A stretch of DNA of 63,563 nt, the filler included, from Chrysochromulina tobinii (taxonomy: Eukaryota): the NCBI GenBank assembly GCA_001275005.1. It is 6 parts of 6 records of this genome, joined end to end, with 100 filler letters (N's around TTAATTAATTAA, not from the genome) between each part and the next. Parts side by side here need not be neighbours in the genome. Positions count along the whole stretch, not along the records: positions 1 to 20,832 come from JWZX01000750.1; positions 20,933 to 39,813 come from JWZX01000754.1; 4 more parts are not named here. One strand, 5' to 3'. Positions 1,538 through 46,925 of this stretch are shown here, piece by piece. Position 1 is the stretch's first letter; each line of letters begins with the position of its first letter. The translations under genes were made by a program, and so were the position numbers. A model generated the notes under the pieces. The model had not been told where the DNA came from, searched no databases, and saw only the letters and a program-made list of their open reading frames with translations.

Positions 1538-4500
1538 ATGTCAAGCAGGTACCGGGTAGGGCTCAGGATTTCAGAGCCTCCAAACTGAAAATTTCGCGTC
1601 GTCCTGTGGCCACGGCGACCGTACTGTGCGACCTCGTCAGCCTCCTCCCGAGGTGCCGCTGCTGCTGCTGCCTCCGTGGCCAGGAGGACCGAGAGCCCTT
1701 GCGCGCGGCGACCTTGACTGCCGGCATCTCCTCAAGTGATCCGAAACCCTTTGGCCACGGCCTGCAGCGCTCGGCGAACGAGGTGACCGCAGAGGCCATC
1801 CGAGCCCAAGAGTGGTGCTTGGAGAACCTCGCCGAGCCGCAGGCGAAGAACGCACCTCGTGAGGAGGACGATGGGCGGCGGCGGCATACGCATCGCAAGC
1901 AGCGCCGACTGGAAGCCTCGAGTGGAGTGGAGCTCGCTGCTGCGGCGGGCAGCAGCACGACGACGTGGGAGCTGCCCGATGGCCCGGCTGAGGCGCACCT
2001 GGATGCGGCAGTGGCCGCGCTGCTGCCGAAACTCGAGGCTATCCCGAGCGGTGCGCTCATCACGAAGGTCAGCAGCATGAGCGGCAATCTATCCGAGCTC
2101 CTCGCGGTCGCGCAGCTCGTCGCGGACCGTGTGAGTACCGAGGGCGCGGTGCTCGTGCGTGCCGGCTGCTTCGCGTGGCTCGCGGCCGCACTGCGCCGCA
2201 CCGACGTGCTGAGCAGTGCGGCCGCGGCGCACCGGCTGTGCTACGCCACCCGATGCGTGCTCGAAGCGTGCGCCGCCACCGCGAGCGCTTCGACACCGAC
2301 GGGAGTGCAGGCGACGTTGCTCGTACGCTCCCGCTCCGCTCTCCGACGCCTGCACGGCGAGTGCATGCAAGTGCTCACCACGGCGCCTTTCCCCACAGGT
2401 ACGCTCGGCGCTCTGCGACGTCTCGACGATGAGTGCAAAGGGCGATAGCCCGACGAGCCTCGCCGTTGGCCTGTGCGGTCTCCTCCGGCGTCACGACGAC
2501 TTTGGGCCGTTGTGCATGGACGCCTTGCATGCGTTGGCTCTCTCCATCCAGCTTGGTGGCGGCGGAGCAGCCACGGCAGCCCTGAGCGCTGCCCTGAGCG
2601 CTGGGGCCGTCGAGCTGTCGCTCGAGTGGGTAGGCCGACGCGGCGGCGGTGCGCTGGCGGAGCGGGAGATGCAAGCGGCGGGCGCGGCGGTGCTGGCTGC
2701 GACCTTCGGTGCGAGGACGGCCGTTGGGGGCTCCGCTGAAGAGGAGGAGGGTGCGGAGGAGGGTGGTGGGCGGCTCGCCCAGGCGCCCGCGACGGCGCTC
2801 GCCCGGGCGCCCGCGACGGCGCTGTGCTCCGCGTCGTCTATTGCCGATGCGAGTGCGCCTGACGAAACGCGCCGCCGTGGGCACCCGGGCGAGCCTGACG
2901 AAACGCGCCGCCGCGGGCACCCAGGCGAGCCTGACGAAACGCGTCGCCGCGCCGCTGTCCTCCGAAGCGCAGCGCAACGCCTCGTCAGTGCGGGAGGCGT
3001 CGGGATCATCGGAAGTGCGCTGCATGCGCATGCCAACCCGAGTGCCACCACCGACCACTTGGTGCTCGCACTCCTAGGAGCGTACCAAGCGATCGCGCCC
3101 ACGTTTGCGGACTGCTGGGCGCAGCTCGAGGACGCAAGGGTGCTGCAGGCCTGCACCGGCATTGTGCTGGCTGCGTCCTCGGGTACGCCTTTGGGCGGCG
3201 GTGCGAGCGCCGCATGTGCTGATGGAGCTGATGGAGCCCACCGCGGCAGAGGTGCACAAGGGATGGCCGTTACGACCGCTGGTAACGGGCGCGATGCTTT
3301 GAGTGTCCTTCGATCCCGCGTGTCCCGCCATGCAAGTGCTCACTACGGCGCGACCCGCATTGCAAGTGCTCACTACGGCGCGTTCCGCCTGCAAGTGCTC
3401 ACTACGGCGCCACTCCCCCCACAGGTGCCTTGAGTGCCCTTCGATCCCGCGCGTCCCGCCATGCTGCCAAGGCCTCGCTCCACCTGCTGTGCGCCGCCCT
3501 CTTGATGCGCACGCACGGCGGCACTCCGGGAGGCGCCGTCTCGGGCGTCTCGGGCACTCCGACGCACTCGTGCGCGCGCGGCGCCGTCTTGGGCGGGCTC
3601 GGTGCTCCTTTGGCGCAGTCGTCCGCTTCATCAATGGCCCTTTCCTCGGCTGTGCTGCAACTGCTGGCGGCGCTCGCGCGGCTGGCTGTGGAAACGCGCC
3701 ACTACGCGCCCAAGCTGCTGGGGGATCTTGAGAGGGCGGCGCCGGCAGCAGCGGCCGTGCCGCACGTCCTTCGTGGCGATCGCGAGGGTGAGGGCTCCTA
3801 ATGACCCTCGATTGCTCTCCTAATGACCCTCGATTGCTCTCCTAATGACCCTTGATTGCTCTCCTGATGACCCTCGATTGCTCTCCTGATGATCTTTGAT
3901 TGCTCTCCTAATGACCCTTGATTGCTCTCCTAATGATCTTTGATTGCTCTCCTAATGACCCTTGTGCGGATCGCGAGGGTTCGCTGCATGCGAGCTCTGC
4001 GCACTCCTCGAGCCTAGCATGCAAGTGCTCACCACGGCGCCATTTCCCCACAGGTGCGCGGGCTGCATGCGAGCTCTTAGCGCTCCTCGACCCCTCAGCG
4101 GCACCGCCCAAGGGTATCGTCAATGCGCTGGTCGCCGCGGCCCGAAGCACTCGAGAGGATGAGGACGAGGGCGGCCAGGGGGACCAGGGAGGTAAGGGCG
4201 GCAAGGGCGGTTGGACGGACGGTGGGAACGCGATGCGCACGTGGCGCCGCCCTGCATGCAAGTGCTCACCACGGCGTGATGTCCCCCACAGGTGTGTGGT
4301 GTGCCGCGCTTCTGAGCCTGTGCTGTCGCCCCCGCCCCATCGAGTCGGCCGCCGCCACGTCGCAGTCTCATCAGGCCTTCGAGGCGTTGGCGAGCATTGC
4401 GCTTCACAAGAGCGACACGTCTTCACAGCAGCGCTACACGTCTTCACAGCAGGCGCTGCCTCTGAGCTTGCTGTCGGTGGCGGCATGCCTCGCTGTGCTG

Positions 4501-5609
4501 CCACCAACGCGAGCGGCCGAGCTGGCCGACTCTCTCTGTGAGGCCGAGCTCGGACTCCTTGATATGATTCGATGGGCTCTCGGTCCCTTAGCCGCTGGCA
4601 TGCGCACGGGCGGCGCGGCTGTGAATCGGCACGCTGTGAATCGGCGCGCCGCCGCCCCCGCTGCCGCCGCCCCCCTCGGCGCCGCCGAGGGTCGTGATGC
4701 GCCGGGTGAGCTGCCCCTAGGCACAAGCCCCCGTGCTCTGGCGGCCTCCTTGCGCCTCGTGAGCGCGCTGCTCCGATATGACGGCGCACCGCGCCGGCAG
4801 GCTTACATCGAGTTGCCCATCCTCGGACGACCCGCAGCGCTCGCAAGCTTATTGGGTCGTGCCGATCTGAGCGCCGTCCCGAGCGTCCAGGCGGCAGGCT
4901 GCGCTCTTGTGCGCGTCCTCCTCACCAATGCAGGCAGCGGCGGCGGTGCTGGCGGCGGCGGCGGTGCTGGCGGCGGCGGCGGTGCTGGCGGCTGTGGGCT
5001 CCGCCACTCTCTTTCAGAGGGGGGGAGCTGTTGCGGCCTGTCGTCGCGCCAAGGCTGCGAAGCTTCGTCAACTGCTTCGTCAACTGCTTCGTCAACTGCG
5101 TCTTCGGCGCTCGACGAGTACTTCGAGGCCACGCTCGCGGCGCTCGTCGCCCATGGCCATGATGGCCGGAGCGCCGCGTCCCTCGAGATCGCGTGCGACG
5201 CGTCGGAGGTGCTCGGCGTCTTCGCACTCCTCGAGCCTTGCATGCAAGTGCTCACTACGGCGCCATCCCCCCACAGGTGCTCGGCGTCTTCGCCACCCGA
5301 CAGGCGGGCGCCCTCCATCACAAAGGCGCCCTCGTCGTCGGCGCCGTCGTGGGCGCTCTCGAGGCTCACGGGCGCACGTCGACCGAGGCGGCGCGCGCTG
5401 GCTGCTACGCGCTGCGCGCCCTCTGCCTCGCGCGCAGTGACCAGGGCGATAAGCGAGCGCGCCTGGCGGCACGGCAGCGCCTCGACGAGCTGCGCTCGAT
5501 GGAGGGGGCTCGACACCTCAAGGCGACACTCGACGCGCAAGGGCACAAGCTGCCGCGCCCGCTGCGCACGTCATGCGTAGAGCTACTCCAGGATATGGGC
5601 GCAAAGTAA
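1538..5609 (+). CDS. Multi-exon hypothetical alpha-helical (ARM-like) protein
   Basis: ORFs 1606, 2216, 3430, 3918, 4123 and 5193 join in frame using introns 2323-2398, 3282-3424, 3788-4053, 4192-4291 and 5209-5276. A first intron 1549-1640 after ATG 1538 is frame-compatible but tentative. Ala/Leu-rich; function unknown. Confidence 0.65.
3798..3963 (+). repeat. Intronic tandem repeat, 22-nt unit CTAATGACCCTCGATTGCTCTC (about 7.5 copies)
   Basis: Visible directly; lies inside intron 3788-4053. Confidence 0.9.
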
Positions 5610-5818
5610 TCTTCAACTCAGTAGAGGTCCCGAAGCGAATAGCGCTTTCATGTATCTTTGACACCCAGAGTGTCTTTCTTTTGAGTAGGATCCTTGTTGA
5701 CAAAGAAGTCACACAGACACATATTCACATTCACACGTGTGGCGTTCGTGTGGATGCGTTGGTGACGTGGCCGCGCTCGAGAGACGCTCGATAATTTCCG
5801 CGAGCGCTTCGCTCGAGA

Positions 5819-6814
5819 ATGTCCGAAGAGGCAGGACTCGCCTTCCTTGAAGAGAACAAGGCCAAGGAGGGCGTGATCACTCTCCCGTCTGGGCTCCAGT
5901 ACAAGGTGCTGGTCGAGGGCGGCGGTGTGGAGCATCCGACGGTCAGCTCTCCGTGTGAGTGCCACTATGCGGGACGGCTCCTCGACGGCACAGAGTTCGA
6001 CTCGTCGTACAAGCGAGGCCAGCCGACCACCTTCGCGCCCAACCAAGTCATCAAGGGCTGGACTGAGGCCATGCAGCTCATGGTGCAGGGTGACAAGTGG
6101 GAGATGTACATCCCATATCAGCTCGCATACGGTGCAGCCGGCAAGCCGCCCAAGATCCCGGCCAAGGCGATGCTCATCTTTGTGATGGAGATCGTCAAGA
6201 TCAAGGGCGACACCGTGCCGCGGAAGCTGCCGTACCCGGAGTGGACGGAGGCGGAGCTCGCGCTCTGGCTGGACAAGGACGAGGCGGCGTGCACGACTTG
6301 GCGCGAGGGGCGGCTTCAAAAGTGGGAGGCGGGCGACGAGAAGTTGAAGAGCTCGTACCCGACGCGTGAGGCGCTCGACGCCTGGCTTGACGGCCAGTGC
6401 CTCAACTCGCGCAACAAGAGCCTGTGGAAGCGCACCCGAGCCGCCAAGAAGATGGCGGAGGCGCCGACCCCTCCGCCCGCCGCGCCCGCGATGACGCCGA
6501 AGTTTGCGCGCACGCTGCTGGACCAGGCGCTCGCGGCCTTCACGGTGCCCGAGAACAAGTCGAAGCTGACGGCCATCGTCGCAGAGTGCGAGGCGGCGCC
6601 GCCCGAGTCGCAGATGATGATGCGCATGTCGAAGATCATGCCAGCCGTACAGGAGATGATGACGAAGCCGCTCGAAGAGGCCGGCTTCCGAGCGGACGAC
6701 TTGATGAGTGTGATGATGCAGATCCGCTCCTTCGAGGCGCAGGACCCCTCGATCGCTGCTGACTGCGCCAAGCTGACGAAGGCGGTCATGGGCGACCTCT
6801 CCGACTTTGCGTGA
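5819..6814 (+). CDS. FKBP-type peptidyl-prolyl isomerase fused to a C-terminal protein-C10-like domain
   Basis: LPSGLQYKVL, HYAGRLLDGTEFDSSYKRG, NQVIKGWTEAMQLM, IPYQLAYG (FKBP). The C-terminus AFTVPEN...IMPAVQE...GF...SFEAQDPSIA resembles C10/C12orf57 as I recall it. Confidence 0.88.
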   Translation: MSEEAGLAFLEENKAKEGVITLPSGLQYKVLVEGGGVEHPTVSSPCECHYAGRLLDGTEFDSSYKRGQPTTFAPNQVIKGWTEAMQLMVQGDKWEMYIPYQLAYGAAGKPPKIPAKAMLIFVMEIVKIKGDTVPRKLPYPEWTEAELALWLDKDEAACTTWREGRLQKWEAGDEKLKSSYPTREALDAWLDGQCLNSRNKSLWKRTRAAKKMAEAPTPPPAAPAMTPKFARTLLDQALAAFTVPENKSKLTAIVAECEAAPPESQMMMRMSKIMPAVQEMMTKPLEEAGFRADDLMSVMMQIRSFEAQDPSIAADCAKLTKAVMGDLSDFA

Positions 6815-7306
6815 GGTCTGAAGCCCGGGCGAACCTCTGACGACAGGCAGGAGGTTTCTCCAGAGAGGTCTCTGATACGAATTAACGGAACCTGAGTCGA
6901 CGACAGGTGGAGGTCTCTCCACCCACGCGGGGTACTGTATCTAAGGATCGGATAGCTGATCGCACATGACGTGACGCAGCGGCGGTGTGTCCGGTGTGTG
7001 TATCGACACAGGTTGGCGTGGAACACGCTGCTCAGACGTCGCACACCGACACAAGCACACTAACCGCTTTCGGCTACTGAATTCGGGTCTGTCACAGTCA
7101 CACACCTTGAGTTCCACACCCGCACGGACCCGCCACTCGCCACATCCGCGACCGCGGCCCCGCCCGGGAGGACATGAGATGTTTGCATGCGCGTGTTCGT
7201 GCTTGCAACAGCCGCCGCTCGCTCACGGCGCGGTGTCGATGCTCCCCGCGCGTAATTCCCTCGGCCTGGGGGGGAGGGGGGGGGTGCTCCTGTCCGTCGC
7301 TTCCGC

Positions 7307-8224
7307 TCAGAAGGGGATCTGTCCCTCACGGAACAGGGGTGTGTCTTCCTCACCCTCGGCCTGGGTGCTCGGACCGAAGAGGTCATCCATCTCCGCGTCG
7401 AGCTCGGCGCCGCGCTCGCCGCCGCGCTCCGCGCGAGATAGCATCTGGTCATCAAGGGGGCTGCCGTCGCCACCGCGTGACGAAGCCATTGCCGCGCCCG
7501 CCACGGCGCCAAAGGCGCTGCTACCCATACCGGCCGCCAGACCGGCGACGTTGGCGGCGACGTTGGCCTTGTAATTGGCCGGGTTGTACGCGCCGTCGTT
7601 GGCGCCGCCCTTGCCGCTCATCTCGTCGATGAATCTCGAGATCTCAGCCCGATCGCTCAGCTGTTCGTAACTCAAGCCCACCTGCTTCTGTCGCGCGAGC
7701 GTCGCGGCGTACAGCAGCTGCTTATCGGTTGGGAGGAGCGAGTCGGACGCGCTGCTGCGGAGCGAGCTGCCACCGCCGCCGTAGGAACGCCCACCCGCCG
7801 CAGGCGTCGCCAAGTGCTGGTTCTGGTCGATGTACTCGCTGATGGCCTTGGCGCTGCTGCGCACCGCGGCCGGCAGTGGCTCGTTCTTGGTGGCCGCGAG
7901 GCTCTCAGCAAAGGCAATCTGGCGCGCCGAGGGCGCGGACTTGCCGAGGGCCTCCTCGATGAAGGCGCTGCACCGCTCGCGGTCGAGGAGCGCGTCCTGC
8001 GGCAGCGCCAGGCCAGAGCGCTGCGCCAGCTGCTGCGCGTACCGGACCTGCTTCTCACTCGGCTCGGAGCCATAACCCCCGGCCGAGTCGGTGAATTGCA
8101 TGCGCGTCGCATGCAGCGCAGCCGTATGCGCGCGCAGTGGCGACGTCAGGGCCGCGAGGCGCAACGTCGCCGGCGGAGTAGAGGCGAGCGCTCGAAAGAG
8201 GACGCTCGCCAAGTTGCTCGCCAT
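7307..8224 (-). CDS. Hypothetical, probably organelle-targeted protein with three P(S/T)xxQxx(Y/F)AxxLA...(F/Y)I(D/E) repeats and an acidic IPF C-terminal tip
   Basis: Repeats PSEKQVRYAQQLA..CSAFIEE, PSARQIAFAESLA..ISEYIDQ, PTDKQLLYAATLA..ISRFIDE. Arg/Ala/Ser-rich, acid-free N-terminus from ATG 8224. Ends EGEEDTPLFREGQIPF. Confidence 0.7.
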   Translation of the reverse strand: MASNLASVLFRALASTPPATLRLAALTSPLRAHTAALHATRMQFTDSAGGYGSEPSEKQVRYAQQLAQRSGLALPQDALLDRERCSAFIEEALGKSAPSARQIAFAESLAATKNEPLPAAVRSSAKAISEYIDQNQHLATPAAGGRSYGGGGSSLRSSASDSLLPTDKQLLYAATLARQKQVGLSYEQLSDRAEISRFIDEMSGKGGANDGAYNPANYKANVAANVAGLAAGMGSSAFGAVAGAAMASSRGGDGSPLDDQMLSRAERGGERGAELDAEMDDLFGPSTQAEGEEDTPLFREGQIPF

Positions 8225-8374
8225 CAGCCCTTGGCGACTCAAACTTTGTTGATTACACTCGACATTTCTTTCCTGTGTTCGGTCCAAACTAAAGAGAAGG
8301 GCTTCCATGCCGTAGTGGAAGACTGAATTCCCTTTTTCGGCAACTTTTTCGAGCTCCCATCTCTCATCCCATCC

Positions 8375-9595: not shown

Positions 9596-10261
9596 GGCAT
9601 CGGCGTGCATGCGAGGACAATGGTGAATCCCCCGGGTGTGCGCTGGCAGCACCTGTGCGTTGTGCCTGATGATTGTGCGCTGTCCCTGTGGGTATGCACT
9701 CTGCGCCTGTGGTCTGTGAGTCCCTCCTGTGGGTGTGGCACTCTGGGGAGATATCATGCCGGCCCGGCGCACGGGGAACCTCAATGACGCCTGTGAGCAG
9801 CCTGGATAGATCAGAGAGGCCGGCCGCGCGCGGCGGGGCTCGACCCGCTCACTCAACAGCCCGCCCGGGGCCCGAGGCGGCCGGGCCGACGTCGGGTCGC
9901 TTGACGCTCCGGAGGAGCGAATGTCAAAGTCGAGACGATGTACTATACCAGCATACTGTATCACCAAATCGGGCACCTACATGGCAACACTCGACTCTGT
10001 CGGAGCAGACAGGGTCGCGACGACGTCCGAGGTCTCGGCGTGTGCTGTCGGGTCCACGACGCACCCGCGAACCACGCGTCCACGCCGACCACGTCCCCCG
10101 GCATGCACACATGCACCATGTAGTCTATCTCCTCTGTCTCGCTCTCGCACTATCTCTCGCGCGCCATTCGTGCTCGCGCCGCCACACACGGCGCTGCCCG
10201 GGCGCTGTTCACGTGCTCTCTCTCTCTCACACGCGTGACCGTCCTTCTCTCGCGCCATCGC

Positions 10262-10984: not shown

Positions 10985-11155
10985 CCCCGATTAGGGGGTA
11001 TGAATATTGAAGAACGGAAAGAAACACGTAAATTAGAATGAAGTAAGGCCATTCATAGCGTGGATGCATCAAGCAGGAGGTGTGTCTTTCTACGGCAACT
11101 TCAAGCCACGTCATTCTGTTCTCGCGTGCCACGTCTCTCGACCTTCAGACCCTTC

Positions 11156-12462
11156 ATGCGCTCGATCTGGAAAGGGATCCCGCACAACGAGGCTGACGCG
11201 GCCGTCGCGGCGTGGCTCTCCGCGCCCGACGGCGCGGAGAGACCACTCCCCGCGGATGCACGCGCTGCCGTCGTCGAAGAGCTCCGCCACCGCCCAAAGG
11301 CGCGTCTCTCGCACACGTTCCTGTACGATGAGCTCGGCTCGACGCTGTACGAGGAGATCTGCAAGACGCCCGAGTATTTTCTGACTGGCCACGAGGCCGC
11401 GCTCGTCAAAGCCAAGGCCGCCGACATCGCCTTCGATGCCTTCCACTCGGCAGCCGCCAATGGTGACGAGCAGGACGTGCAGGTGGTCGTCGAATTCGGC
11501 TCCGGCGACGGCCACAAAACGCTCGCGCTGCTGCGCGCGCTTCGGCCGCTCGCGCAGCACACTATCTACGCTCCGCTCGACTTGAGCGCCGAGGCGCTCC
11601 AAACGTGCGTCAGTGCGGTCAGCGCCATGGTCTCGTCCGAGCCGGGCCGTCCGCTCTCGACCATGCCACTCCATGGCAACTACGACGAGACGCTGTTCGA
11701 GGCGGCAGCGCTGCCCGGCCGCAAGCTGTACCTCTTCATGGGCTCCAACCTGGGCAACTTCACCGACGCGCAGGCCATCGCCTTCCTCCGGGGCGTCGCG
11801 CGCCACATGACCCACCGTGATCGGCTCCTCCTCGGTGTAGACACGCCAATTTCGTCCACTAAGAGCTCGAGCATGATCGAGGCGGCCTACAACGACGCGC
11901 GCGGCGTGACGGCGGCGTTCACGATCAACGCGCTGCGCCACGTCAACCGCGTCGCCGGCCTCGACTTTGACTGGCGCGACGGCTGGTGCCACGAGGCGAG
12001 GTACTCTCACGACGAGCGCGCGATCGTCACGCACCTCGTGTCTCGTCGAGAGCAGGTGAAGGCTTCGTCAGCGCCTCATGATTGCCTTGTAATTGCCTCG
12101 CCGATTGCCTCATGATTGCCTCATGATTGCCTCGTCAGTGCCTCGTCAGTGCCTCGTCAGTGCCTCGTGAGTGCCTCTGATTGCCTCTGATGGCGCGATC
12201 GTCACACACCTCTTCACACCTCCGTATCCCGAAAATGTCACAGACGGTGCGCCAGACGACGACGACGACGAGGGCAGAGGAGGAGGAGGAGGAGGAGGGC
12301 GCCGCCGGCGCGATCGTGCGCACGTACCAAGAAGGCGAGCGCATCTTCGTCGAGCAGTCGCGCAAGTTCGACGCGCCGAGCCTCGAGCGTCTTTGCCGCA
12401 GCGCCGGCCTCTTCACACGTCGCACGTGGAGCGACACCGATGGGTTCACCCTGATCAGCGAG
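11156..12462 (+). other. egtD: Domain 1 of the fusion: histidine N-alpha-trimethyltransferase (EgtD, Methyltransf_33)
   Basis: FLYDELGSTLYEEICKTPEYFLT, VEFGSGDGHKT, FMGSNLGNF, AAYNDARGVTAAF, GERIFVEQSRKF. Confidence 0.9.
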
Positions 12463-15400
12463 GTGAGTGTCGTTAATTGCCTCTTGATTGCCTCTTCGCA
12501 CACACGATGGGTTCACCCTGATCAGCGAGGTGAGTGTCGTTAATTGCCTCTTGATTGCGTCTTCGCACACACGATGGGTTCACCCTGATCAGCGAGGTGA
12601 GTGACGCCCTCGACGGCGCCCTCGGCCTCGGAGTGCCACTGAGTGCATGCTGATTGCGCTTGATGGTCGTCCTCATCAGGTGGTGCCCTCGACGGCGCCC
12701 TCAGCTGGACCGAATGCGCTCTCCCGCCCACTGCGCGTCGTCGTGATCGCCTCGATGACGTCGCACACGGGCAACGCGGTCACCGCAGCACGGATCATGA
12801 GGCTCTTGCCCGCCGCCCACGTGAGCGCGCTGGACATTCACACGGTTTCGTCACGCGCCGTGTTGGCCACCCATCTCGTGGCGGGGGGATCGGGCACTCC
12901 GGCGGCGGGCCTCGTTCTCGGCGTGCATGCGTACCGGTCGGGCAAGCTGCTGCTCGGCTGCGGCGTGCCGTACATGATCGTCCTCGGCGGGACGGACGTG
13001 AACATCGATCTGCACGAGAGTGCCAAGGGAGAGGTGATTCGACGCGTCATCGCCGAGGCGGCGGCGGTCGTCGCGTTCAATGAGGAGCTCAAGACGGGGC
13101 TCCTCGCGCGGGTCCCCGAGGCGCGCTCCAAAGTGTTCCTGATTCCACAGGCGGTGGAGCTCGAACCCCCCGAGATCGTTGACGAGACCGAGGATGACGA
13201 AACGCGCTTCCGTGAGCGCCTGCGGGCTGCGCTCGACGTAACCGCCAACGAGCAGCTGCTGCTGCTGCCCGCGGGGGTGCGACCTGTGAATGATTGCTGC
13301 CCGCGGGGGTGCGACCTGTGAATGATTGCTGCCCGCTGGGGTGCGACCTGTGAATGATTGCTGCCCGCGGGGGTGCGACCTGTGAATGATTGCTGCCCGC
13401 GGGGGTGCGACCTGTGAATGATGCCCGCGGGGGTGCGACCTGTGAAGGACGTGCTCCGAGTGTCGTTAATGGCCTCTTGATTGCCTCATCAGGTGCGACC
13501 TGTGAAGGATGTCCTCTGGGCGGCCGAGGCGATCGCCCAATGGCATGCGAGCGACCCACGCATCTGTCTGCGCATCGTCGGCCCCGTGCTCGATGCCAAG
13601 TACGCGCAGGCAGTCAAGGCGACGCTCGGCATGCAAGTGCTCACCACGACGCCCTCACTCCCCACAGGTACGCGCAGGCAGTCGAGGCGGCGCTCGCGGC
13701 GCTCGCGACGGCGCCGTCCACCGCTCGGGCGGTGCGCTACGTGGGCGCGTTGCCGCGGGCACAGCTGCACGAGGCGATGAGGATGGCGGCGATGGTGATC
13801 AACACGAGCGAGAGCGAAGGGCAGTGCAACTCGCTGCTCGAGGCGATGCTCGCAGGCACGCCCATCGTGGCGCGTGCCAATCTGGGCAACACTTCACTCC
13901 TCGTCGCTCCAGGGACAGTGCACCAGCGCTACGGGCTGCTCGGCACGACGCCCGCGGAGCTCGTGAGCCAAGCCCAACGGCTGCTTGCGTCTGATTGCGG
14001 CTGATTGCGTCTGATTGCGTCTAATTGCGTCTGATGGCGTCTGATGGCGTCTGATGGCGTCTGATGGCGTCTGATGGCGTCTGATTGCGTCTGATTGCGT
14101 CCCTCATCAGGTGAGCCAAGCGCAACGGCTGCTCGCCGATGGCGATCTCGCAGCACGGCTCACACACGCCGCCAAGGCCAAGGTGAGTGTCGTTAATTGC
14201 CTCCTGATTGCCTCTTCACACACGCCGCCAAGGCCGAGGTGCAAGCCGAGATTGCGGTCGAGCTCGAGGCCGCTTGATGGCCTTTGATTGCCTCCCTTAT
14301 CAGATTGAGTGCCTCCCTCATCAGGTGAGCGACGAGCTCGAGGCCGCTTGATGGCCTCTGATGGCCTCCGATTGCCTCCCTAATTAGATTGAGTGCCTCC
14401 CTCATCAGGTGCAAGCTGAGAATTCGGTCGCGCTCGAGGGGGAGAGGTACGCGGCAGCGGCACAGCACGCGCTCGCCATCCAAGTGCTCACCACGACGCC
14501 CTCACTCCCCACAGGTACGCGGCAGCGGCACAGCACGCGCTCCAGTACGCCGGCCCTGCGCCGCGCGACACGACCTACGTAGGGCTCCATGCGCCGCCGC
14601 CAGAGGCCCTCGGGCTGCGCCTGAGCAAGGCGGGCGTCGTGGCGGGCGTCTTCGAGGCCCTCGAGGTGTACGAATCCATACGGGCGCACACGTGGCAGGC
14701 GCGTGCTTCACGCCTCCACGCCCAGCATGCATGCGCTCACCACGGCGCGCGGGCCCTTCGCGCGCTTCATGGCCCCGCCTCCTCGCCCAGCATGCAAGTG
14801 CTCACCACGGCGCCCGGGACCTTCCCCACAGGCGCGCGCTTCATGGCTGCGCGCGCAGCTCTGGACGTCGTACCGGCGCTTTCTGGCAGCGGTGCCGGCG
14901 GCGCAGCTCGCTCGATCTCCGGGGCTCTACCCGACGGACTGGTCGATTGGCCACGTCGCCTTCACCTTCGACTACCTCGTCGCCCTCCCGCTGCGCCTTC
15001 CAACGGCCGGAGTGCTCTGGCGCCCAACTCGGCGCCCGACCAAGGAGGGCGCCGCCGCCGCCCAGCTCGGCGCCCAGCACGGCCTGCCGTTGGCGGCGAT
15101 GATCCAGCAGGCGTCGAGCGCCGCCGTGGGCGCGCTCGGCGAGTGGTGGAGTGGCGGCGCCCATGACGGCGCTGAAGGTGGCGCCCACCACGGCGCCCAG
15201 GGTGGCGCCCACGACGGCGCCGGTGTGTTGGCCGACGACGGGTGTGGGGGGGAGGCGACCTTCTGCAGCGCCCACGGCGGCGCCAAGCGCGGTGGCGGCG
15301 ACTCGGATCGCGCCGTGTTGCGCACTCAGGCGTGGACGTTATACGACTCGATGCGGGTGAGCGGAGCAGAGCGCTGATGACCGCTGATGACCGCTGATGA

Positions 15401-16643
15401 CCGCTGATGACCGCTGATGACCGTTGATGACCTCCCTCATCAGGTGAGCGGAGCAGAGCGCTGGGCGCTGTGGGAAGAAGGCGAGCTCCCCGACGCGCGC
15501 CTGTACCTGCACCAGGTGCATGCGATGGCCGACACCCTTGACTTGACCTGACTTGACCTGACTTGACTTAACTTGACTACCAGGTGCATGCGATGGCCGA
15601 CACCCTTGACTTGACCTGACTTGACCTGACTTGACCTGACTTGACTTGACTTGATTTGACTTGACTACCAGGTGCATGCGATGGCCGACACCCTCATCAG
15701 CGACTGCATCGGCGGCGTCTCCACGGGCCAGCCCGGTGCTTGCAACGGCGCTCACGACGGCGCGGCGGCAGAGGGCACGAAGGTAGCACTGCTGCCTCCG
15801 TGCGTCTCGTACCTTCTCTTGTACTCGATCGTACACACGCTCTGGCACACTGAAGAGCTCATCCACGCGCGCAACCTGCATAAGCAGCCGCCGCCGCCGC
15901 CGCCTGCCGAAGACGAGGCAGAGCCCGCGCCGCCCCCGACCCCCCCGAACCCCCGAACCCCCGAACCCCCCGACCCTGACCCCGGCGCCGACCCCGCCGC
16001 CCGCGCCTATAACGGCGCAGGACGCGCCAGCAGAGGGGAGGACCGTGCAAGATTCCCCACAGCCTCCATCTTCCGTGCCGGAGCCGCCCTGCCCGCCGCC
16101 GCCGACCCTGCCGCCGCCGCCGACAATGCCGCCGCCAACCCCGCCGCCGACAGCGGCCTTCGGGCCTTGCCAGGGCGTGGACGATGTGTGCATTCCGGGG
16201 GGCATCTTCTTCCTTGGAGCCGAACGGGATGGGCCGCCGAGCGACGCGCACCCACGCTTGATCCTCGACTGTGAAAAGTGGGCCCACACCCCTGATCTCC
16301 CGTGAGCTCCGAGATTGATCCTCGACTGTGAAATGTGGGCCCACCCCCCTGATCTCCCGTGAGCTCCTGAGCGCCTCTGATGACCGATGATGAACGCTGT
16401 GATGACCGCTAATGACCTCCCTCATCAGGTGGGCCCACCCGGTGCCCCTCGAGCCATTCCGCATCGCCAAGCACTGCGTGACCAATCGCGAGTTCGCCGC
16501 GTTTGTGCTCGCGGGCGGGTACGCAGACGAGTCGTTCTGGAGCTTCGACGGAGTGCGCTGGCTTCGTCAAGCGAAGCTGGAGCACCCGTACAAGTGGCGA
16601 CGCGTCGCTCGCGAGGACGGCGCTGGCACCAATGGAGTATGCC

Positions 16644-16674
<31 letters not shown>

Positions 16675-17570
16675 GGGCGAGGGCGACTGGCAGGCTACCC
16701 TCAGCTGCGCGCAGCTCCGCCACGCCGGTCACGGCCACGCCAGCAAGGACCCCAGCAAGGACCCAATCAAGGACCCAAGCGAGGACCCATGCTGCCGCCA
16801 ATTTCGTCTGCAGTGGTTCGACCGCATGATCCCGCTGCCGCCCTATCAGCCCGTGAGCCACATCTCGTACTACGAGGCCGAAGCGTTCTGTGCGTGGGCG
16901 GGCCGCCGACTGCCCACCGAGGCCGAGTGGGAGGCGGCGTGCTGCGGCGTCCCCACAGCTGATGACGGCCACCTCGCGCCGCATAAGGGTCGCCCGATGC
17001 CCTGGGGAGACGGACCGCCCACGACGGCGCGTGCCAACTGTGGCATGCGCCACGCCACACTGCTCGACGTTCATGAGCTGCCCGCGGGAGATTCGATCTG
17101 GGGGGTGCGCCAGATGCTCGGCAACGTGTGGGAATGGACCTCGACACAGTTCTACCCGTACCCAGGCTACGTAATGGACTTTCCGTACGTGACTGAGTGC
17201 CACTGAGCGCGTCTGATCGCCTCTGATTGCCGCTGATGGACTTTCCGTACGCGACTGAGTGCCTACTGAGTGCCACCGAGAGTGCCACTGAGTGCCACAG
17301 AGCGCGTCTGATCGCCACTGATTGCCACTGATTGCCACTGAGTGCCGCTGAGTACCACTGAGTGCCTCTGATCGCCACTGAGTGCCGCTGATCGCCGCTG
17401 AGTGCCACAGGTACCGCGAGCAGTCGGCACCGCACTTTGGCGGGTCGCGGGTCGCGCGAGGCGGCTGTTTCGCGACGCCCGACCTCATCGTGCGCGGCGA
17501 GTACCGCTCCTTCTACCACCCGACCAACCGACCGGAACTCGCCATTGGCTTCCGCACGTGCGCGCTCTGA
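11156..17570 (+). CDS. Trifunctional EgtD-SenB(GLT1D1-like)-SenA/EgtB fusion; candidate selenoneine/ergothioneine synthase, 14 exons, about 1475 aa
   Basis: Exons 11156-12055, 12244-12462, 12680-13276, 13493-13599, 13668-13962, 14111-14182, 14409-14446, 14515-14698, 14832-15356, 15444-15515, 15672-15917, 16021-16277, 16429-17184, 17411-17570 sum to 4428 nt with no internal stop. 11 GT-AG and 2 GC-AG introns. Several junctions restore conserved motifs (HLVSRREQ|TV, G|VRPVKD, YDSMR|V, DCEK|WAH, FP|YREQS). Confidence 0.85.
13277..13492 (+). repeat. Intron built largely from about 6 tandem copies of the exon-exon junction sequence (CTGCCCGCGGGGGTGCGACCTGTGAA+TGATTG)
   Basis: Visible directly; ends in TTGATTGCCTCATCAG acceptor. 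Confidence 0.85.
13600..13667 (+). mobile_element. Introner-like intron, module A (CAAGTGCTCACYACGRCG...CCCCACAG); related introns at 2323-2398, 3282-3424, 3788-4053, 4192-4291, 5209-5276, 14447-14514, 14699-14831
   Basis: Shared ~35-nt 3' module in 8 introns of two unrelated genes. The 5' part is usually a copy of the downstream exon start. Confidence 0.75.
14832..17570 (+). other. senA: Domain 3 of the fusion: DinB + FGE-sulfatase iron-dependent synthase, SenA-like branch of the EgtB family
   Basis: WSIGHVA, LYDSMRV..ERW, HTLWHTE (HxxxHxE), IPGGIFFLGA, DCEKWAHPV..PFRIAK.CVTN, PVSHISYYEAEAFCAWAGRRLPTEAEWE, MLGNVWEWT, YPYPGY..PYREQSAPHFG, RGGCFAT, GFRTCAL. Confidence 0.8.
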
Positions 17571-17678
17571 AGCTCAAGGCATGCAGAAGGTGCGGCATGA
17601 TAGACTCATGTAGATTGAGACCACATTGGAGGTGAGCTAACTGAGCGGGCTGGCGGCGGGCTCAAATTTACTCGAGTG

Positions 17679-17713
17679 GGCTCGTGCGTAAAGATCACGT
17701 TTACGCACGAGCC
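17679..17713. repeat. Perfect 14-bp inverted repeat with 7-nt loop
   Basis: GGCTCGTGCGTAAA-GATCACG-TTTACGCACGAGCC; GTAAAGATCACGT recurs at 17715-17727. Confidence 0.85.
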
Positions 17714-17934
17714 AGTAAAGATCACGTAGAGCATTTCGTCCGTCGCTCTGAAAAGAAAATAGCTCGGCCTTGCAAGCAAGCTAAGTAGTCTTTTTTTGGC
17801 TTGCTTGCTTGCTCGGCCACCAGCTCTCGGGCGGGCTGTTTCGTTTTGACAGACCCCGGGAATCGCGGCGAAACGGCGGCTTGGAGGCTCCTGCTGGTAT
17901 TGCTGTCAAAGAGCGACCGTCCGCTTCACGCTTC

Positions 17935-18747
17935 ATGGCGCCGCGAACTGGCGACGTTGTCGCGCGACAGCCTTCTTGGATACCCGACGAGCTCGTTACA
18001 GCGTGTGGAGGATGTGCCATGGAGTTCGGGCTCATCAAACGCCGGCACCATTGCAGAGCATGCGGTGGCATCTTTTGTTCAAGTTGCTCGCTCTCGCGAG
18101 AAGCCTTCCCGCACCTTGGCTACCACGAGCCCGTTCGATGCTGCAACCCCTGCGCCACCATCATGCACGAGCAGAGGCAGCGCCCTGCACGTGGCGCGCC
18201 GGCCCAAGCTGAGACCTCGGGAGCACCGCCCGCGCACGCAGAGAAGGGTGCACGCGTTCGAGTCTTCGGCCTCGAAGCCAAGCCAGAGTACAACGATCAG
18301 ATGGGCACGGTCACCTTGTGGGATGACGCAAGGAAGCGCGCGGGCGTGCTGCTCGATAGCGGCACGAAGGTAGCTCTCAAGCTAGCGAACCTACGAGCTG
18401 CCACAGAGCCACCCGCCGCTGCGGCACAGCCGTCGTCGTCGTCGGAACTGCCACCCGCCGCGCTGGCACAGCCATCGTCGGAATTGCCGATCTCCGCGGC
18501 TCTACCACTGCCACGCCGCCGCTCGGCGCCGCCGCTCCTCACGACCCAAACGCCGGCCGCCCTGCCCGCTGCAGCGCCACCTGGTGCATCGAAACCCTCT
18601 TCGCTCCTGCCGAGGGACAGCGCCCGGGACGGCGCTATTCGGGTGGACAAGATCTACCATGGCAGCGCTGTCATGTTCCTACTCGAACTGGCCTTCGCTG
18701 CAGCGATGAGCGAGCTCGCGGAGAATCGCCCTGCCGCAAGCGCTTAA
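17935..18747 (+). CDS. FYVE zinc-finger protein with a small SH3-like beta domain
   Basis: WIPD..C..C...F.LIKRRHHCRACGGIFCSSC..VRCCNPC, then GARVRVFGLEAKPEYN..G.V...RAGVLL..VALKLANL. Confidence 0.85.
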   Translation: MAPRTGDVVARQPSWIPDELVTACGGCAMEFGLIKRRHHCRACGGIFCSSCSLSREAFPHLGYHEPVRCCNPCATIMHEQRQRPARGAPAQAETSGAPPAHAEKGARVRVFGLEAKPEYNDQMGTVTLWDDARKRAGVLLDSGTKVALKLANLRAATEPPAAAAQPSSSSELPPAALAQPSSELPISAALPLPRRRSAPPLLTTQTPAALPAAAPPGASKPSSLLPRDSARDGAIRVDKIYHGSAVMFLLELAFAAAMSELAENRPAASA

Positions 18748-19110
18748 AGGCTCTGGCCCCTGCTTCGACCAAGGCTTCGACTCGAGATTCAACGGCACAA
18801 CTACAAGAGGCTGCACAGAGTGTGTGTGGACTTCGTGTCACACTCGGAACACGAACTTTGGTGTGCGGTGCAGAATGGGTTTACACGAGCGCAATTATCC
18901 GGATTCGTAACCAGAAATCCAGAGAGCAGAGTCGCCAAAATTCGACCGTTGACCTTTTCACCGGCTTCAAAAGCCGCCCCCTGGGGTACATTTTGCTGAG
19001 TCCGGCGGCAAGGTGATGACTCGTCCTGAAAGCTTCGGTGATTTCATCGCAAGTTCGACGACACGCGCCCATGACGACGCATCTCGAATTCGCCATTTTT
19101 CGAAAGCGAG

Positions 19111-20832
19111 ATGGCCGAAGCGACGACGACGACAGAGGCGATGCCGGCAGAGGCGGCGATTGAGACGAAGAACTCGATCCTCGAGGTCGGCAACTCCATG
19201 CTGAACGCGATTGTGCTGGCCTTCTCGCCGCGTGGGCCGCTTTCATCGGGACCGACGAGCGTTCCCGCGCGTGCGCTTTCAAGCGCGCGCACTGTGCAGG
19301 CGGCAGCGAAACAGACACTTCCAGAAACGCCCACTGAGGTTGAGCTGCCGACGCTCAAGCCAGAGTCTGACGCTGCCTCTCACTTGGCGCCGCCGCCGGC
19401 GCACCGCCACCAAATGGGCCCCACGCGGCCCGATGCCTTGGATAATGGGGACGACACCAACCTCGACGACATCGACGACGACGACGACGACGCTATTCGG
19501 AATTCGCGTCGCAAGCGTTGCCCCACGCGCAAGCACGTCGACATCGACCACGAGGTGAAGCGCGAGTTGAGTGCGCTCGACAGCGACCTGGCGGAGGTGC
19601 TCGGACGCGGCGATATTGCGCTCGTGAGCACGAAATGGCTGAAAGCCCAGCTCGCCCGGCAGCCAGACTACCGCATCGTCCGCCGGCAGGACCTCAAGCC
19701 TGTGGGCGGCATCAAGCCACATCTGACGCCCAAGGAGGCCAAGCGGCTCCTTCTCGAGGGCAGGCGCGCAGTCGGCGCGTTCTCTCTCGGCTGGCCCACC
19801 CAGGGCAACCCGGACCCGACCGGCCACCGCATCCAGGCCTTTGGGCGTGCCCTTTTAGAGCGGCCCGACATCGAGGCCTTTTTCTGGGATTACCCATCGC
19901 TGTACCAGAACAGTGACCACAGTCCCCGCACCAAAAAGCAGGAGCGCTCCTTCAAAAGAGGGCTTCGCGTGGTAAGGCGCTCGCGATCAGAACGCTCCTC
20001 CGGAACGCCCCACGTCATGCCCCCCTCCTCTCTTCATGCTGTCCTTCGCACCGCCTCGCTGAGAGAATGCCGCCCACCCCCGTCGGCCTCTGTGCCGTGC
20101 GTGCGTCCTCGCCGCAGATGGGCAGCCTCTATGCCTCCGCTATCGGCACGACCGTGCTGCAGCTCAAAGAGCTGCCGCCGCGACCGCGAGAGTACGATGG
20201 CAAGCTCTGCCTCTTCGACGTCGCCCCGGGCGTTGACGGGGCGGCGATCAAAGCGGCGCTTGTGCCCTACGGCGACATCGTCAGCTGCATGCTCGGCAAA
20301 ACTGCGCGTCCTGCGACCGTGTGCTTCGCGACGCACGCGGCGGCGCAGGCGGCCAAGCGCGCGGCGGCGCAGCTCGTGCACATCGCCGGCGGCGTGGACA
20401 CGCTCTTCAACGAGCGCTCGTACGATGGACGGCACGGCGAGGCCGGCCTCGACGACGACGAGGGCCGCGGCTGGTGCGTCTTCGAGTCGGCGGTGAGCGG
20501 CGAGCTCATCCTGCGGCTGTCCGTCGTCCCACGGCTGAAGGCGGAGCTGGATAAGCTGCCGCCCAAGATGCTTCAGGTCCGCAGCGGGCACTCCCTCGAG
20601 CCCGTCGACTTGAGCGCCGGCCGGCTCGAGACGCGCGTCGCCGAGGTGGTAGCCCGCATCGAGGGAGCCACCTTCACCGGCAAGGGCGACAAGGCCATGG
20701 TCATCGACCTTTACAAGACGTTTGTGGAACGGATTGCGGGCGCGCTGGCGCGATTGTTGCCCAAGATGCGCGCGTCCCACGGTGCGACGGCCGCGCCGCC
20801 GGAGCCGCTGCCGCAGGTCGATGCGCCCGCCG
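19111..20832 (+). CDS. Hypothetical protein of an algal family with a HET-like domain, truncated by contig end
   Basis: SLGW..GNPDPTG, FFWDYPSLYQ, MGSLYASAIGTTVLQ, GRGWCVFE. Intron 19972-20117 (GTAAGG...CCGCAG) joins ORFs 19111 and 20067. Confidence 0.65.
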
Positions 20833-20932
20833 NNNNNNNNNNNNNNNNNNNNNNNNNNNNNNNNNNNNNNNNNNNNTTAATTAATTAANNNNNNNNNNNN
20901 NNNNNNNNNNNNNNNNNNNNNNNNNNNNNNNN
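20833..20932. other. Artificial contig spacer (also 39814-39913, 52613-52712, 56183-56282, 61586-61685)
   Basis: Identical 100-nt N-run with a central TTAATTAATTAA six-frame stop linker. Confidence 0.98.
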
Positions 20933-22708: not shown

Positions 22709-24036
22709 ATGTTCCACGAGTTCTTCTTGCGAGGTTCCCGCGCTCGAATCGCATGGGCGTGGTTCGGCCTCGCAAGCATCATGGGCAAGGCCGTGTTCAG
22801 CGCTTGGAACAAGCGAAGATACAATGACTTCACCCTCGACTTTTACAATTTGGTGGCGTATGGGCAGGAGTACGGCCTCGGGCATGAGCAGATGGTTGAT
22901 CGACTCTACAGCATCATGTGGAGCTGGTTGTCGATCCAGATGGCCCAGTTTCTCGTGTACCCGGCGCTGCGCATACTGCACAATTACTGGGCTGCTTCCT
23001 GGCGATTCGTCCTCGTGGAAGAGTACTTGCAGCGCTGGCACAGGAACTCGAGGCCTCTTGAGGGCGTCTCGCAGCGCATTCATGAGGACGCGCACCGCTT
23101 CACCGAGGGCATCAACTGGATCACGTACGATCTCCTCGATTCCATCGCCAGCCTCGTGGCCTTCACTCCACTCCTGGCCACTCTTGGCGAGAAGGTGCCG
23201 CCGCCCGGATTCGGCAAGGGAGAGGTGCCCGGCGTATGGCTCGCGTATGCCGCCGTGGGGGGAGGCATCGTTGGCACGTGCATCTCGCTCTTCATCGGTC
23301 GCCACCTCGTGGCGATCCGAGTCACCATTCAACGGCTGAACGCGAAGCTGCGTCGCGATCTCGTCCTCGTTGAATCGGCGTATGAGCATGTGGCGGGAGC
23401 GGATCCAGACGAGTACAGCACGAAGCATAGTCGCCGGGCGAGCCGTTTGGCGCCCTTTGCGCCCCTGTTGACCGAGATGTGGAACGCTTACAGTACGATG
23501 TACGTCCATCTCGGCGCGCGCGCGCTGGCCTGATTGCCTCCCTCATCAGTCTGATTGCCTCCCTCATCAGGTACGTCCATCTCGGCGCGCTCCGCTTTTG
23601 GAACGAGCTGTGGTCCAATGTCGACGAACTGCTCCCGTACATTCTAGTTGCGCCGCGTCTGATCGCCGCCGACCCGGAGATGCGTCTCTCGTACGGCGAC
23701 CTCGCCCAAACGAAGAACGCCGTCGGGCGCGTCTTCAACCAAATCTGGACCTGGGCTGAGAAGTGGGAGGACTTGACTGAGTGGATGTCGGTCCATCGGC
23801 GTCTCGTCGAACTTGAGGAGATGCTTGCCAACGCGGACGAGCGCGAAGCCTTGGCGGCCTTCGCCACTCCGACGCCGTCCTTCGGCAAGGTCTTCGGCCA
23901 CGCTCTGCCTTCTAAGGCACTGCCGTTGGCCATGCCAGTGGCGCGGAGCGCGAGCAGTTCTCCAACGGCTGTGATTCCGAGCTCTTCGTTCCGAGGGGTG
24001 CGATCCGAACCTTTCAGGATGGCGGATATGGTTTGA
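22709..24036 (+). CDS. sbmA: SbmA/BacA-family peptide transporter (ABC-like TMD, no ATPase domain), 2 exons
   Basis: Starts MFHEFF (cf. SbmA MFKSFF); FYNLV, WR...EEY, EGVSQRIHED..RF, LVAFTPLL, QRLNAKLRRDLV..E, LPYILVAP, W..LTEWMSVHRRL..LE. Intron 23500-23570. Confidence 0.8.
23500..23570 (+). mobile_element. Introner-like intron, module B ((CTGATTGCCN)n...CTCATCAG); related acceptors at 12679, 13492, 14110, 14408, 15443, 16428, 29543, 30099
   Basis: Perfect 20-nt duplication GTACGTCCATCTCGGCGCGC at the intron start and at the next exon start; two tandem CTGATTGCCTCCCTCATCAG modules. Confidence 0.8.
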
Positions 24037-46792: not shown

Positions 46793-46891
46793 GCCGACCT
46801 TGGCGGTGTGGCGGGTCCGGGTGTGTTCGGCGATGCAAAGGGAATCCGGGCGCTTGCCTGATCTTGCCTGAGGAATTCGCGCTTTCTGCCG

Positions 46892-46925
46892 GTACCGGTA
46901 AAAAGACACCGGGGGGAGCCGGGAC
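46892..46925 (-). promoter_or_regulatory. Dispersed motif GTCCCGGCTCCCCCCGGTGTCTTTTTACCGGT (copies also at 48184-48215, 48233-48266, 53161-53192; partial at 52868-52925, 53027-53045, 53129-53148)
   Basis: Near-identical copies on two contigs, oriented toward and 60-100 nt upstream of an ATG. A regulatory role is inference only. Confidence 0.5.

What the first reader, a model, noticed from the sequence alone, without database searches (positions are those of the whole stretch)
2323..23570. Intron creation by long exon duplication plus an inserted acceptor module
Seen: many introns start with a copy of the next exon's first bases. Lengths are 17 nt (5209/5277), 29 nt with 2 mismatches (13600/13668), 23 nt with 1 mismatch (13963/14111), 28 nt (14447/14515), 20 nt (15357/15444), 23 nt (15516/15672) and 20 nt (23500/23571). 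The duplicate supplies the GT donor, a short shared module supplies the branch point and AG, and splicing restores the ORF exactly. More decayed copies (2323, 3282, 4192) suggest an age series. Known introners in other algae are mostly TIR elements with short fixed target-site duplications. Inference: long, variable duplications without TIRs point to a staggered cut with target-primed insertion or repair synthesis, a different intron-gain mechanism.
Basis: partly seen in the sequence, partly recalled or inferred. Interest (0 to 1): 0.85.

Follow-up and report, generated by a model that had tools for sequence, protein, structure and literature searches.

The report
New introns built from copied exon
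In a haptophyte alga, many spliced introns begin with a 10-40-base copy of the next exon and end in a short piece shared with other introns, and close relatives differ in which of these introns they carry, which likely means new introns are being made when DNA repair duplicates a bit of exon and copies in the tail of a nearby intron.

Summary
Observation confirmed. All seven quoted duplications have the stated lengths and mismatches. Five of them are spliced GT-AG in RNA contigs. Other assemblies and a ~98% relative carry them, so they are not artefacts.

They are recent gains. Seven sites in two genes are empty in some relatives and filled in others. The cleanest is window 13033|13034, empty here, where L006 holds a 66-nt intron made of a 21-nt exon copy plus the acceptor module. 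Distant homologues lack these positions.

There are no terminal inverted repeats, and duplications run from 10 to about 40 nt. Modules are kin within a gene (9 of 9, p=1/126), and a 41-nt donor piece was copied between introns 1.7 kb apart.

Best reading (0.5): staggered-break or template-switch repair captures the branch point and AG of an existing, often neighbouring intron; splicing selection keeps the clean products. Main rival (0.3): a dispersed retro-type element later homogenised locally; modules do change at a fixed site (5209).

4192 is not a decayed copy. New variant of repair- or introner-mediated intron gain, not found in nine literature searches.

The parts
1603..5609 (+). Host gene 1 (no Pfam family found for two of its ORFs), five module-A introns; start codon not fixed
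   Evidence: open 1117-aa frame after splicing; Pfam
2323..2398 (+). Module-A intron, decayed copy of about 39 nt of the next exon
   Evidence: splicing inferred from the ORF
3282..3424 (+). Module-A intron (three module copies); 39-nt exon copy starts 13 nt inside
3788..4053 (+). Compound intron: repeat array, internal copies of both flanking exons, module A
4192..4291 (+). Module-A intron with no detectable copy of the next exon
4537..4538 (+). Empty site; relatives P0143, P0144, P0146, P0148 carry a module-A insert of about 72 nt with an exon copy
   Evidence: protein read-through only
4783..4784 (+). Empty site; P0147 has a module-A intron end here (5' part not seen)
5209..5276 (+). 68-nt intron, 17-nt exon copy plus module A; same site with a different middle in P0145 and P0147
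11156..17571 (+). Host gene 2: EgtD-like methyltransferase, glycosyltransferase and FGE/EgtB-like fusion, 12 introns
12056..12243 (+). Repeat-rich intron with a copy of the upstream exon, none of the next
   Evidence: RNA contig arithmetic
12463..12679 (+). Intron; two added units (41-nt donor piece of intron 14183 plus upstream-exon copy) absent in L006
13033..13034 (+). Empty site; L006:2936-3001 is a 66-nt intron of a 21-nt exon copy (1 mismatch) plus module A
13277..13492 (+). Spliced intron: tandem junction copies, 24-26-nt exon copy, module like intron 14183; absent in 16 of 16 read-through relatives
13600..13667 (+). Spliced 68-nt intron, 29-nt copy plus module A; absent in 16 of 16 relatives
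13963..14110 (+). Spliced intron, 23-nt copy plus module B; absent in 14, present in 1 of 16 relatives
14183..14408 (+). Older spliced intron (present in 14 of 16 relatives), likely source of the pieces in 12463 and 13277
14447..14514 (+). Spliced 68-nt intron, 28-nt copy, module core identical to 13600; absent in 2 of 2 relatives that reach it
14699..14831 (+). Spliced GC-AG intron, two module-A units; nearest kin of the L006 extra intron
15357..15443 (+). Spliced intron, 20-nt copy plus module B
15516..15671 (+). Spliced intron, two units of a 23-nt copy plus 5-mer repeats
16278..16428 (+). Spliced intron, 10-12-nt copy, junction duplicated, module B
17185..17410 (+). Spliced repeat-array intron, only 4 nt shared with the next exon
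23500..23570 (+). 71-nt intron in an SbmA/BacA-like gene, 20-nt copy plus module B (other contig)
   Evidence: splicing not tested
29118..30864 (+).

Best explanation
These are spliced introns whose 5' end is a duplicate of the next exon and whose 3' end is shared with other introns; they differ between close relatives and were likely made by error-prone repair that re-copies 10-40 nt of exon while copying in the last 35-55 nt of an existing, often neighbouring, intron. Inferred steps: (1) a staggered break or displaced nascent strand ends 10-40 nt past an exonic GT or GC; (2) the end anneals by a few bases to another intron upstream of its branch point and copies through the AG; (3) it re-anneals at the GT, so the exon piece is doubled; (4) selection keeps only products that start with a usable donor, end in AG and are long enough (52-72 nt, donor-to-branch about 38-46 nt), which would explain why the duplications are long; (5) the same process keeps acting afterwards, giving tandem units, upstream-exon copies and swapped module middles. 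Whether the template is DNA or pre-mRNA is open. Shown: the anatomy, splicing, empty and filled sites, no TIRs, local kinship, and one local 41-nt transfer. Inferred: the enzymology and the break geometry.
For: Filled versus empty site at DNA level: L006 66-nt intron against window 13033|13034. Six more polymorphic sites from read-through proteins. Distant homologues L007-L012 read through the sites they cover. RNA joints; at 13277, 13600 and 13963 the RNA follows the downstream copy past the first mismatch. No TIR: inverted match 3-4 nt at module-A ends, and at most 7 nt at 24 of 25 intron ends. Nearest module-A relative in the same gene for 9 of 9 introns, exact permutation 1/126. All 10 module-A core hits are sense and lie in two genes. 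The 33-nt donor motif occurs at only four places in 63.6 kb, all within 1.75 kb; the 12463 unit matches intron 14183 of L006 at 40 of 41 letters, including 14183's own exon-derived junction, with shared letters at both ends. Intron 14183 is older than 13277, whose module it resembles. Proximal repair capture with microhomology and sometimes a TSD is documented in vertebrates (PMC2671141).
Against: Site 5209 has the same exon copy but a different middle in P0145 and P0147, so local kinship can arise after gain by conversion, and 3788 cannot be called the parent of 5209. P0147's module in gene 1 resembles 13600/14447 of gene 2. For module B only 4 of 6 introns in gene 2 have their nearest 3' end in the same gene. 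The kinship score was chosen after I had seen the pairs, and it rests on two genes 8 kb apart. Shared exon starts, taken as 3' microhomology, are confounded with selection for a donor consensus. Depth over module A is over 100-fold single-copy depth (no copy number), and an earlier scan note reports over 100 related introns, as a dispersed element would give. No genome was held, so antisense or intergenic copies could not be counted. Six of seven polymorphic sites rest on gene-caller proteins whose DNA I could not see.
Confidence: 0.5

Rival explanations
1. A dispersed non-autonomous element (SINE-like or intron-derived RNA) inserts by target-primed reverse transcription with long variable target-site duplications and 5' truncation; neighbouring copies are homogenised later by gene conversion.
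For: Fixed 3' end, ragged 5' end and variable duplication are the hallmarks of target-primed insertion (recalled). High module depth. Module swap at 5209. Non-LTR introners exist, about 5% of classified cases (PMC12130899). Chrysochromulina MAGs hold up to 827 introner copies.
Against: No A-tail or tail repeat. At least four unrelated 3' modules share the layout. All module-A copies in the window are sense and intronic. The young L006 intron already has its nearest kin in the same gene. A donor-side piece moved locally with the mirror-image duplication.
Confidence: 0.3
2. Plain tandem duplication of an AG|GT exon segment (Rogers model), with branch and acceptor motifs brought in later by conversion from other introns.
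For: Tandem duplication across splice sites is common here (12463, 13277, 14183, 15516, 16278). Conversion occurs. The model has in vivo support (PMC3443670).
Against: Several donors have no AG before them (13600, 13963, 16278, 23500: left extension 0), so the AG came with the module. Copies of 17-29 nt are shorter than any intron or intron unit seen here (52 nt or more). The polymorphic L006 intron already has the whole module.
Confidence: 0.08
3. Old introns whose 5' ends were rewritten by partial cDNA- or mRNA-templated repair (aborted intron loss); the empty sites are precise losses.
For: Some introns hold spliced-junction copies (13277, 14183, 16278). Adjacent sites are empty together in P0121-P0136, as co-loss would give.
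Against: Outgroups are empty: 13033 is empty in 16 of 16 more distant relatives, 4538 is empty in P0145, and distant homologues lack the positions. P0135 has 13963 alone. Junction copies also follow from local tandem duplication.
Confidence: 0.06
4. Cut-and-paste DNA transposon (MITE-type introner) whose TIRs have decayed.
For: About 82% of classified introners are TIR elements. The donor-from-TSD, acceptor-from-element layout is known in Symbiodinium and Polarella.
Against: No TIRs even in the polymorphic L006 intron. Duplication is 10-40 nt and variable, against fixed 3-8 nt in those families.
Confidence: 0.04
5. Short-read assembly artefact at repeats.
For: All DNA seen is short-read assembly. 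Chimeric contigs at modules exist (P0146, L001, L017).
Against: Four other assemblies agree at 99.8-99.9%, and a ~98% relative has the same introns with its own changes. RNA removes exactly these stretches.
Confidence: 0.02

Closest known systems
Introners that carry the 3' splice site and take the 5' site from the TSD (Symbiodinium; Polarella classes 4/5 and 6/8/10; Emiliania huxleyi fam24 'co-opt 5' carry 3'') - bioRxiv 10.1101/2022.06.06.494994, 10.1101/2020.10.14.339549, PMC12130899 dataset
   Same: Repeated intron sequence, donor from duplicated exon, acceptor from the insert, mRNA unchanged; haptophytes (Chrysochromulina MAGs) are known introner hosts
   Different: Those TSDs are fixed at 2-8 nt, and the Symbiodinium family has TIRs. 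The figured Chrysochromulina family has a 4-bp TSD and the opposite polarity. Here the duplication is 10-40 nt and variable, there is no TIR, only the 3' part is shared, and kinship is local.
Intron gain by repair of staggered double-strand breaks in Daphnia pulex (PMC4202315)
   Same: Polymorphic new introns with an exon-derived direct repeat, and later internal duplications
   Different: Daphnia repeats are 4-12 bp and the insert source is mostly unknown; here the repeats are longer and the insert is the working 3' end of other introns.
[quoted passage not shown] 2009, PMC2671141)
   Same: Donor under 5 kb away, microhomology at junctions, sometimes a 4-21-nt TSD, no polyA
   Different: In the parts read (abstract, breakpoint section) it is described in vertebrate genomes and not as a repeated way of making introns.
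Tandem genomic duplication model of intron gain (Rogers; reviewed in PMC3443670)
   Same: Exon duplicate supplies the donor
   Different: There both splice sites come from the duplicated AGGT; here the acceptor and branch motif come from a foreign module.
Intron transposition and reverse-transcription template switching (named in PMC3443670); Micromonas IEs and the R-loop model (PMC4540971)
   Same: Existing introns seed new ones, on the coding strand only
   Different: Those models move whole introns without exon duplication; here only the 3' part is copied.

Membership tests
Introner (broad sense) | Repeated intron sequence at unrelated sites | tested here: met
   Module A in 8 window introns of two genes and in L001 and L006; similarity covers the 3' part only
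Introner (broad sense) | Precisely spliced, mRNA unchanged | tested here: met
   11 RNA joints; open frames
Introner (broad sense) | Presence/absence among relatives | tested here: met
   1 site at DNA level, 6 at protein level
Introner (broad sense) | End-to-end similarity between copies | tested here: not met
   5' 16-40 nt are locus-specific
TIR/MITE introner | Terminal inverted repeats | tested here: not met
   3-4 nt at module-A ends
TIR/MITE introner | Short fixed TSD | tested here: not met
   10-40 nt, variable
Non-LTR/SINE insertion by target-primed reverse transcription | Variable TSD, fixed 3' end, ragged 5' end | tested here: met
   the feature list is recalled
Non-LTR/SINE insertion by target-primed reverse transcription | A-rich or simple-repeat 3' tail | tested here: not met
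   Modules end at CAG
Non-LTR/SINE insertion by target-primed reverse transcription | Dispersed copies in both orientations and an autonomous partner | not testable with these tools
   No genome held; in the window 10 of 10 module-A hits are sense and intronic
Repair-mediated proximal capture | Template within a few kb | tested here: met
   41-nt piece 1.7 kb away; 9 of 9 nearest kin in the same gene; later conversion not excluded
Repair-mediated proximal capture | Microhomology at both junctions | tested here: inconclusive
   Clear for the 12463 unit; 2-6 nt at module 5' joins; 3' side confounded with donor consensus
Repair-mediated proximal capture | Dependence on a repair polymerase or pathway | not testable with these tools
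   Needs genetics
Tandem-duplication intron (Rogers) | Both splice sites from a duplicated AGGT | tested here: not met
   No AG before the donor at 13600, 13963, 16278 and 23500

The most novel reading that the evidence does not exclude
A self-propagating intron factory with no mobile element. Any intron's branch-point-plus-AG tail can be copied by repair into a nearby exonic GT, the exon duplicate making the donor and padding the length. Each product is itself a CAG|GT template, so introns breed introns gene by gene and the proto-splice-site bias is built into the mechanism. Look-alikes in distant haptophyte loci (L010 intron with a 17-nt copy; telomere-repeat inserts with 21-33-nt duplications in L011 and L012) suggest a lineage-wide repair habit.
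Probability: 0.4. Interest if true: 0.88.

Novelty: new variant of a known kind. Interest (0 to 1): 0.74.

Why it matters
How new spliceosomal introns arise is a long-standing question, and recent surveys attribute ongoing gain mainly to transposons (PMC12130899). This alga shows gains still segregating (seven sites in parts of two genes), each with a readable footprint and, in some cases, a candidate template next door. That makes intron gain by repair directly testable genome-wide. Introner pipelines that need whole-intron similarity and short TSDs would likely miss or mislabel such introns. The duplicates also mislead assembly, read mapping and gene calling in haptophytes.

Tried and rejected
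No whole genome was held and the contigs behind the loci could not be extended, so no genome-wide table was made.

Module scans of viral contigs gave 1, 0, 3 and 1 loci. L001/L015 (one contig) and L017 are phage contigs with a short algal piece at the end; L014 and L016 are chance coding matches. Prokaryote genome scans gave none.

The first read layout at 90% likeness was swamped by repeats. Of the 15 RNA joints shown, I set aside 4: three join repeat to repeat, and 13265-13422 in X17 looks like a collapsed tandem array.

The organism behind P0137 stayed unnamed. P0146 looks chimeric, so it carries little weight.

Rejected: 4192 as a decayed duplicate; 3788 as proven parent of 5209; shared exon starts as proof of 3' microhomology; the rank correlation of -1 between duplication and spacer length, which is partly built in by subtraction. 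Two ordinary introns were mis-set by one base and corrected.

Oikopleura same-gene intron pairs are recalled only; the passages read did not state them.


Full report
SETTING. The window is a string of contigs joined by N linkers, 56-69% GC. The nearest named relatives of an intron-free protein are Prymnesium parvum, Haptolina ericina and Chrysotila carterae at 59-65%, so this is a prymnesiophyte haptophyte; the genus is not established. No genome was held. The finding covers three genes: gene 1 (1603-5609), an EgtD-glycosyltransferase-FGE/EgtB fusion (11156-17571) and an SbmA/BacA-like gene (from 22709, next contig).

OBSERVATION. Of 24 introns that I modelled in the window, 10 begin with an anchored copy of 10 nt or more (14699 is degenerate). 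Five more (2323, 3282, 3788, 12463, 29118) hold a displaced or decayed copy of the next exon above the cross-locus null, and 14183 holds a 31-nt one. Eight hold none: 4192, 12056, 17185, 19972, 29988, 30267, 30700 and 40571. Several also hold copies of the upstream exon end.

SPLICING AND ASSEMBLY. Four RNA runs gave joints at 11 introns of the fusion gene, including 13600 (1 of 4 runs), 13963 (2), 14447 (3), 15357 (4) and 15516 (1). Intron 12056-12243 follows from contig lengths. The duplication makes the cut ambiguous by up to 30 letters, but a GT-AG placement (GC-AG at 14699) fits each joint. Where the copies differ, the RNA follows the downstream copy. 5209 and 23500 rest on open frames only. 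Loci L002-L005 repeat the window at 99.8-99.9%, L005 in one piece over 2525-20832. They may be the same strain, and none is long-read.

GAINS. L006, about 98% identical in exons, shares 13277, 13600 and 13963. It has an extra 66-nt intron at window 13033|13034: 21 nt of the next exon with one mismatch, then module A to the AG. The window has a single copy of that exon piece.

Gene-caller proteins of relatives begin and end inside introns, so I infer that they come from genomic contigs. Of 22 hits, 16 are of this kind (P0121-P0136, about 85-90% identical). All 16 are empty at 13033, 13277 and 13600. At 13963, 14 are empty, P0135 is filled and one does not reach it. Both that reach 14447 are empty, and 14 end in intron 14183.

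For gene 1 (7 hits), four carry a 24-codon module-A insert with an exon copy at 4537|4538, where the window and the more distant P0145 are empty. P0147 has a module-A end at 4783|4784, where three others are empty. Six distant glycosyltransferase loci (L007-L012, 41-56% identical, stand-alone genes where the context is seen, so perhaps not strict orthologues) read through the window's sites that they cover and have introns elsewhere. Gain is the simplest reading.

ANATOMY. Module A has a conserved core with a branch-like CTCAC whose A lies 22-29 nt before the end (the branch consensus is recalled), then a variable spacer and a C-rich CAG. Module B is an array of 10-bp units, many with branch-like motifs, ending CTCATCAG. 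There are no TIRs and no A-tail. Clean module-A introns are 66-72 nt long although their copies run 16-29 nt, and donor-to-branch distance is 38-46 nt in four of them. I infer a length floor set by splicing, which would select long duplications for a short module.

SOURCE OF THE MODULE. Every module-A intron has its nearest relative in its own gene (9 of 9, p=1/126). The closest pairs are 13600/14447, L006 extra/14699 and 5209/3788. The window's intron 12463 has two units that L006 lacks. Each is 41 nt matching the start of intron 14183 (40 of 41 to L006's copy, including that intron's own exon-derived junction), followed by a copy of the upstream exon. The motif occurs only at 12463, 12530, 13456 and 14183 in 63.6 kb. 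This is a local templated insertion with duplication, the mirror image of the intron-making event. The module of the young intron 13277 resembles the older 14183.

Against a simple parent-daughter reading: site 5209 keeps its exon copy but has another middle in P0145 and P0147, so modules are also replaced after gain. P0147's gene-1 module resembles gene-2 modules, and module-B kinship is mixed (4 of 6 in gene 2).

MECHANISM. I commit to microhomology-guided template switching during repair of a staggered break or a displaced nascent strand (0.5). Synthesis runs 10-40 nt past an exonic GT, jumps into another intron above its branch point, copies to the AG and returns to the GT. Selection for a donor, an AG and a minimum length leaves precise introns. 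The products and one local transfer are shown; the break, the enzymes and DNA versus RNA template are inferred. The main rival is a dispersed element inserted by target-primed reverse transcription and later homogenised (0.3); a genome-wide count of antisense and intergenic copies would separate the two.

COMPARISON. Gozashti et al. 2022 (passages; supplement rows for 66 of 214 mentions) report many Chrysochromulina introner families. The figured one has a 4-bp TSD, no TIR and carries its 5' site. The 2025 survey (passages; supplement rows; files 13-14 not searched) lists no family for C. tobinii, and a five-copy Emiliania family that co-opts the 5' site with a 2-nt TSD and a note of 10-bp terminal direct repeats. 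I could not see those sequences, so overlap with module B is not excluded.

Dinoflagellate TSDs are 3-8 nt (passages). Daphnia new-intron repeats are 4-12 bp with mostly unknown source (passages). Proximal repair capture is described in vertebrates (abstract and one section). The seven classical mechanisms come from passages of PMC3443670. Direct repeats of 4-30 bp near splice sites were surveyed broadly (abstract). I also read part 1 of 5 of PMC11282704 and passages of PMC4540971, PMC4122922 and PMC4580454.

Nine searches found no description of long variable exon duplicates joined to intron tails; the library lacks most subscription papers.

VERDICT. Real, spliced, recently gained introns with an unusual footprint. 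It works like an acceptor-carrying introner but fails the TIR, fixed-TSD and end-to-end tests. New variant of a known kind, with a fair chance (0.4) of being an element-free route by which introns seed introns. Interest 0.74.

Noticed in passing
window 11156-17571: Three-part fusion of an EgtD-like methyltransferase, a GT1-type glycosyltransferase and an FGE/EgtB-like domain, also in P0137 and P0138; possibly a one-protein ergothioneine- or selenoneine-type pathway (inference from recalled pathways).
   Followed up: partly
L011:667-792 and L012:530-655: 93-nt in-frame insert of telomere repeats flanked by a 33-nt exon duplication, absent in L009 and L010; could be a GC-AG intron.
   Followed up: partly
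L012:157-303 and L011:369-500: TTAGGG-type array with a 21-nt duplication across a donor site.
   Followed up: no
L010:3667-3802: Distant haptophyte intron that starts GC with a 17-nt copy (2 mismatches) of the next exon, followed by tandem repeats.
   Followed up: no
L017, contig end, and L001:1360-1560: Phage contigs ending in short algal intron pieces (likely chimeric assembly); the L017 piece has a 52-nt unit with a 14-nt exon copy.
   Followed up: partly
window 15949-15957: Window lacks two C letters seen in X10, L002, L004 and L005; likely a homopolymer error that breaks the frame.
   Followed up: yes
window 12056, 13600, 13963: Mismatches between intron copy and exon match the state in a relative (the L006 exon or copy, or Thr in P0121-P0136), so the copies record older exon states.
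   Followed up: partly
window 37533-37730: Minus-strand array of 10- and 20-nt repeats between two ORFs, probably another repeat-rich intron.
   Followed up: no
window 50283-51884: Aldose epimerase fused to a C-terminal domain that relatives attach to GST, cyclodeaminase and other enzymes.
   Followed up: no
window 19111-20833 and L002:7556-10964: Multi-copy gene with a P-loop (NACHT-like) motif and leucine-rich repeats continuing past the contig end; raised depth.
   Followed up: no
window 61687-63563: Start of a multi-part ORF region that looks like a retroelement reverse-transcriptase gene (by eye only); not tested as a helper.
   Followed up: no
window 46890-46925, 48180-48265, 52870-53200: Recurring intergenic motif with CACCGG/CCGGTG arms and CCCCCC runs, in both orientations; possible MITE.
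   Followed up: no
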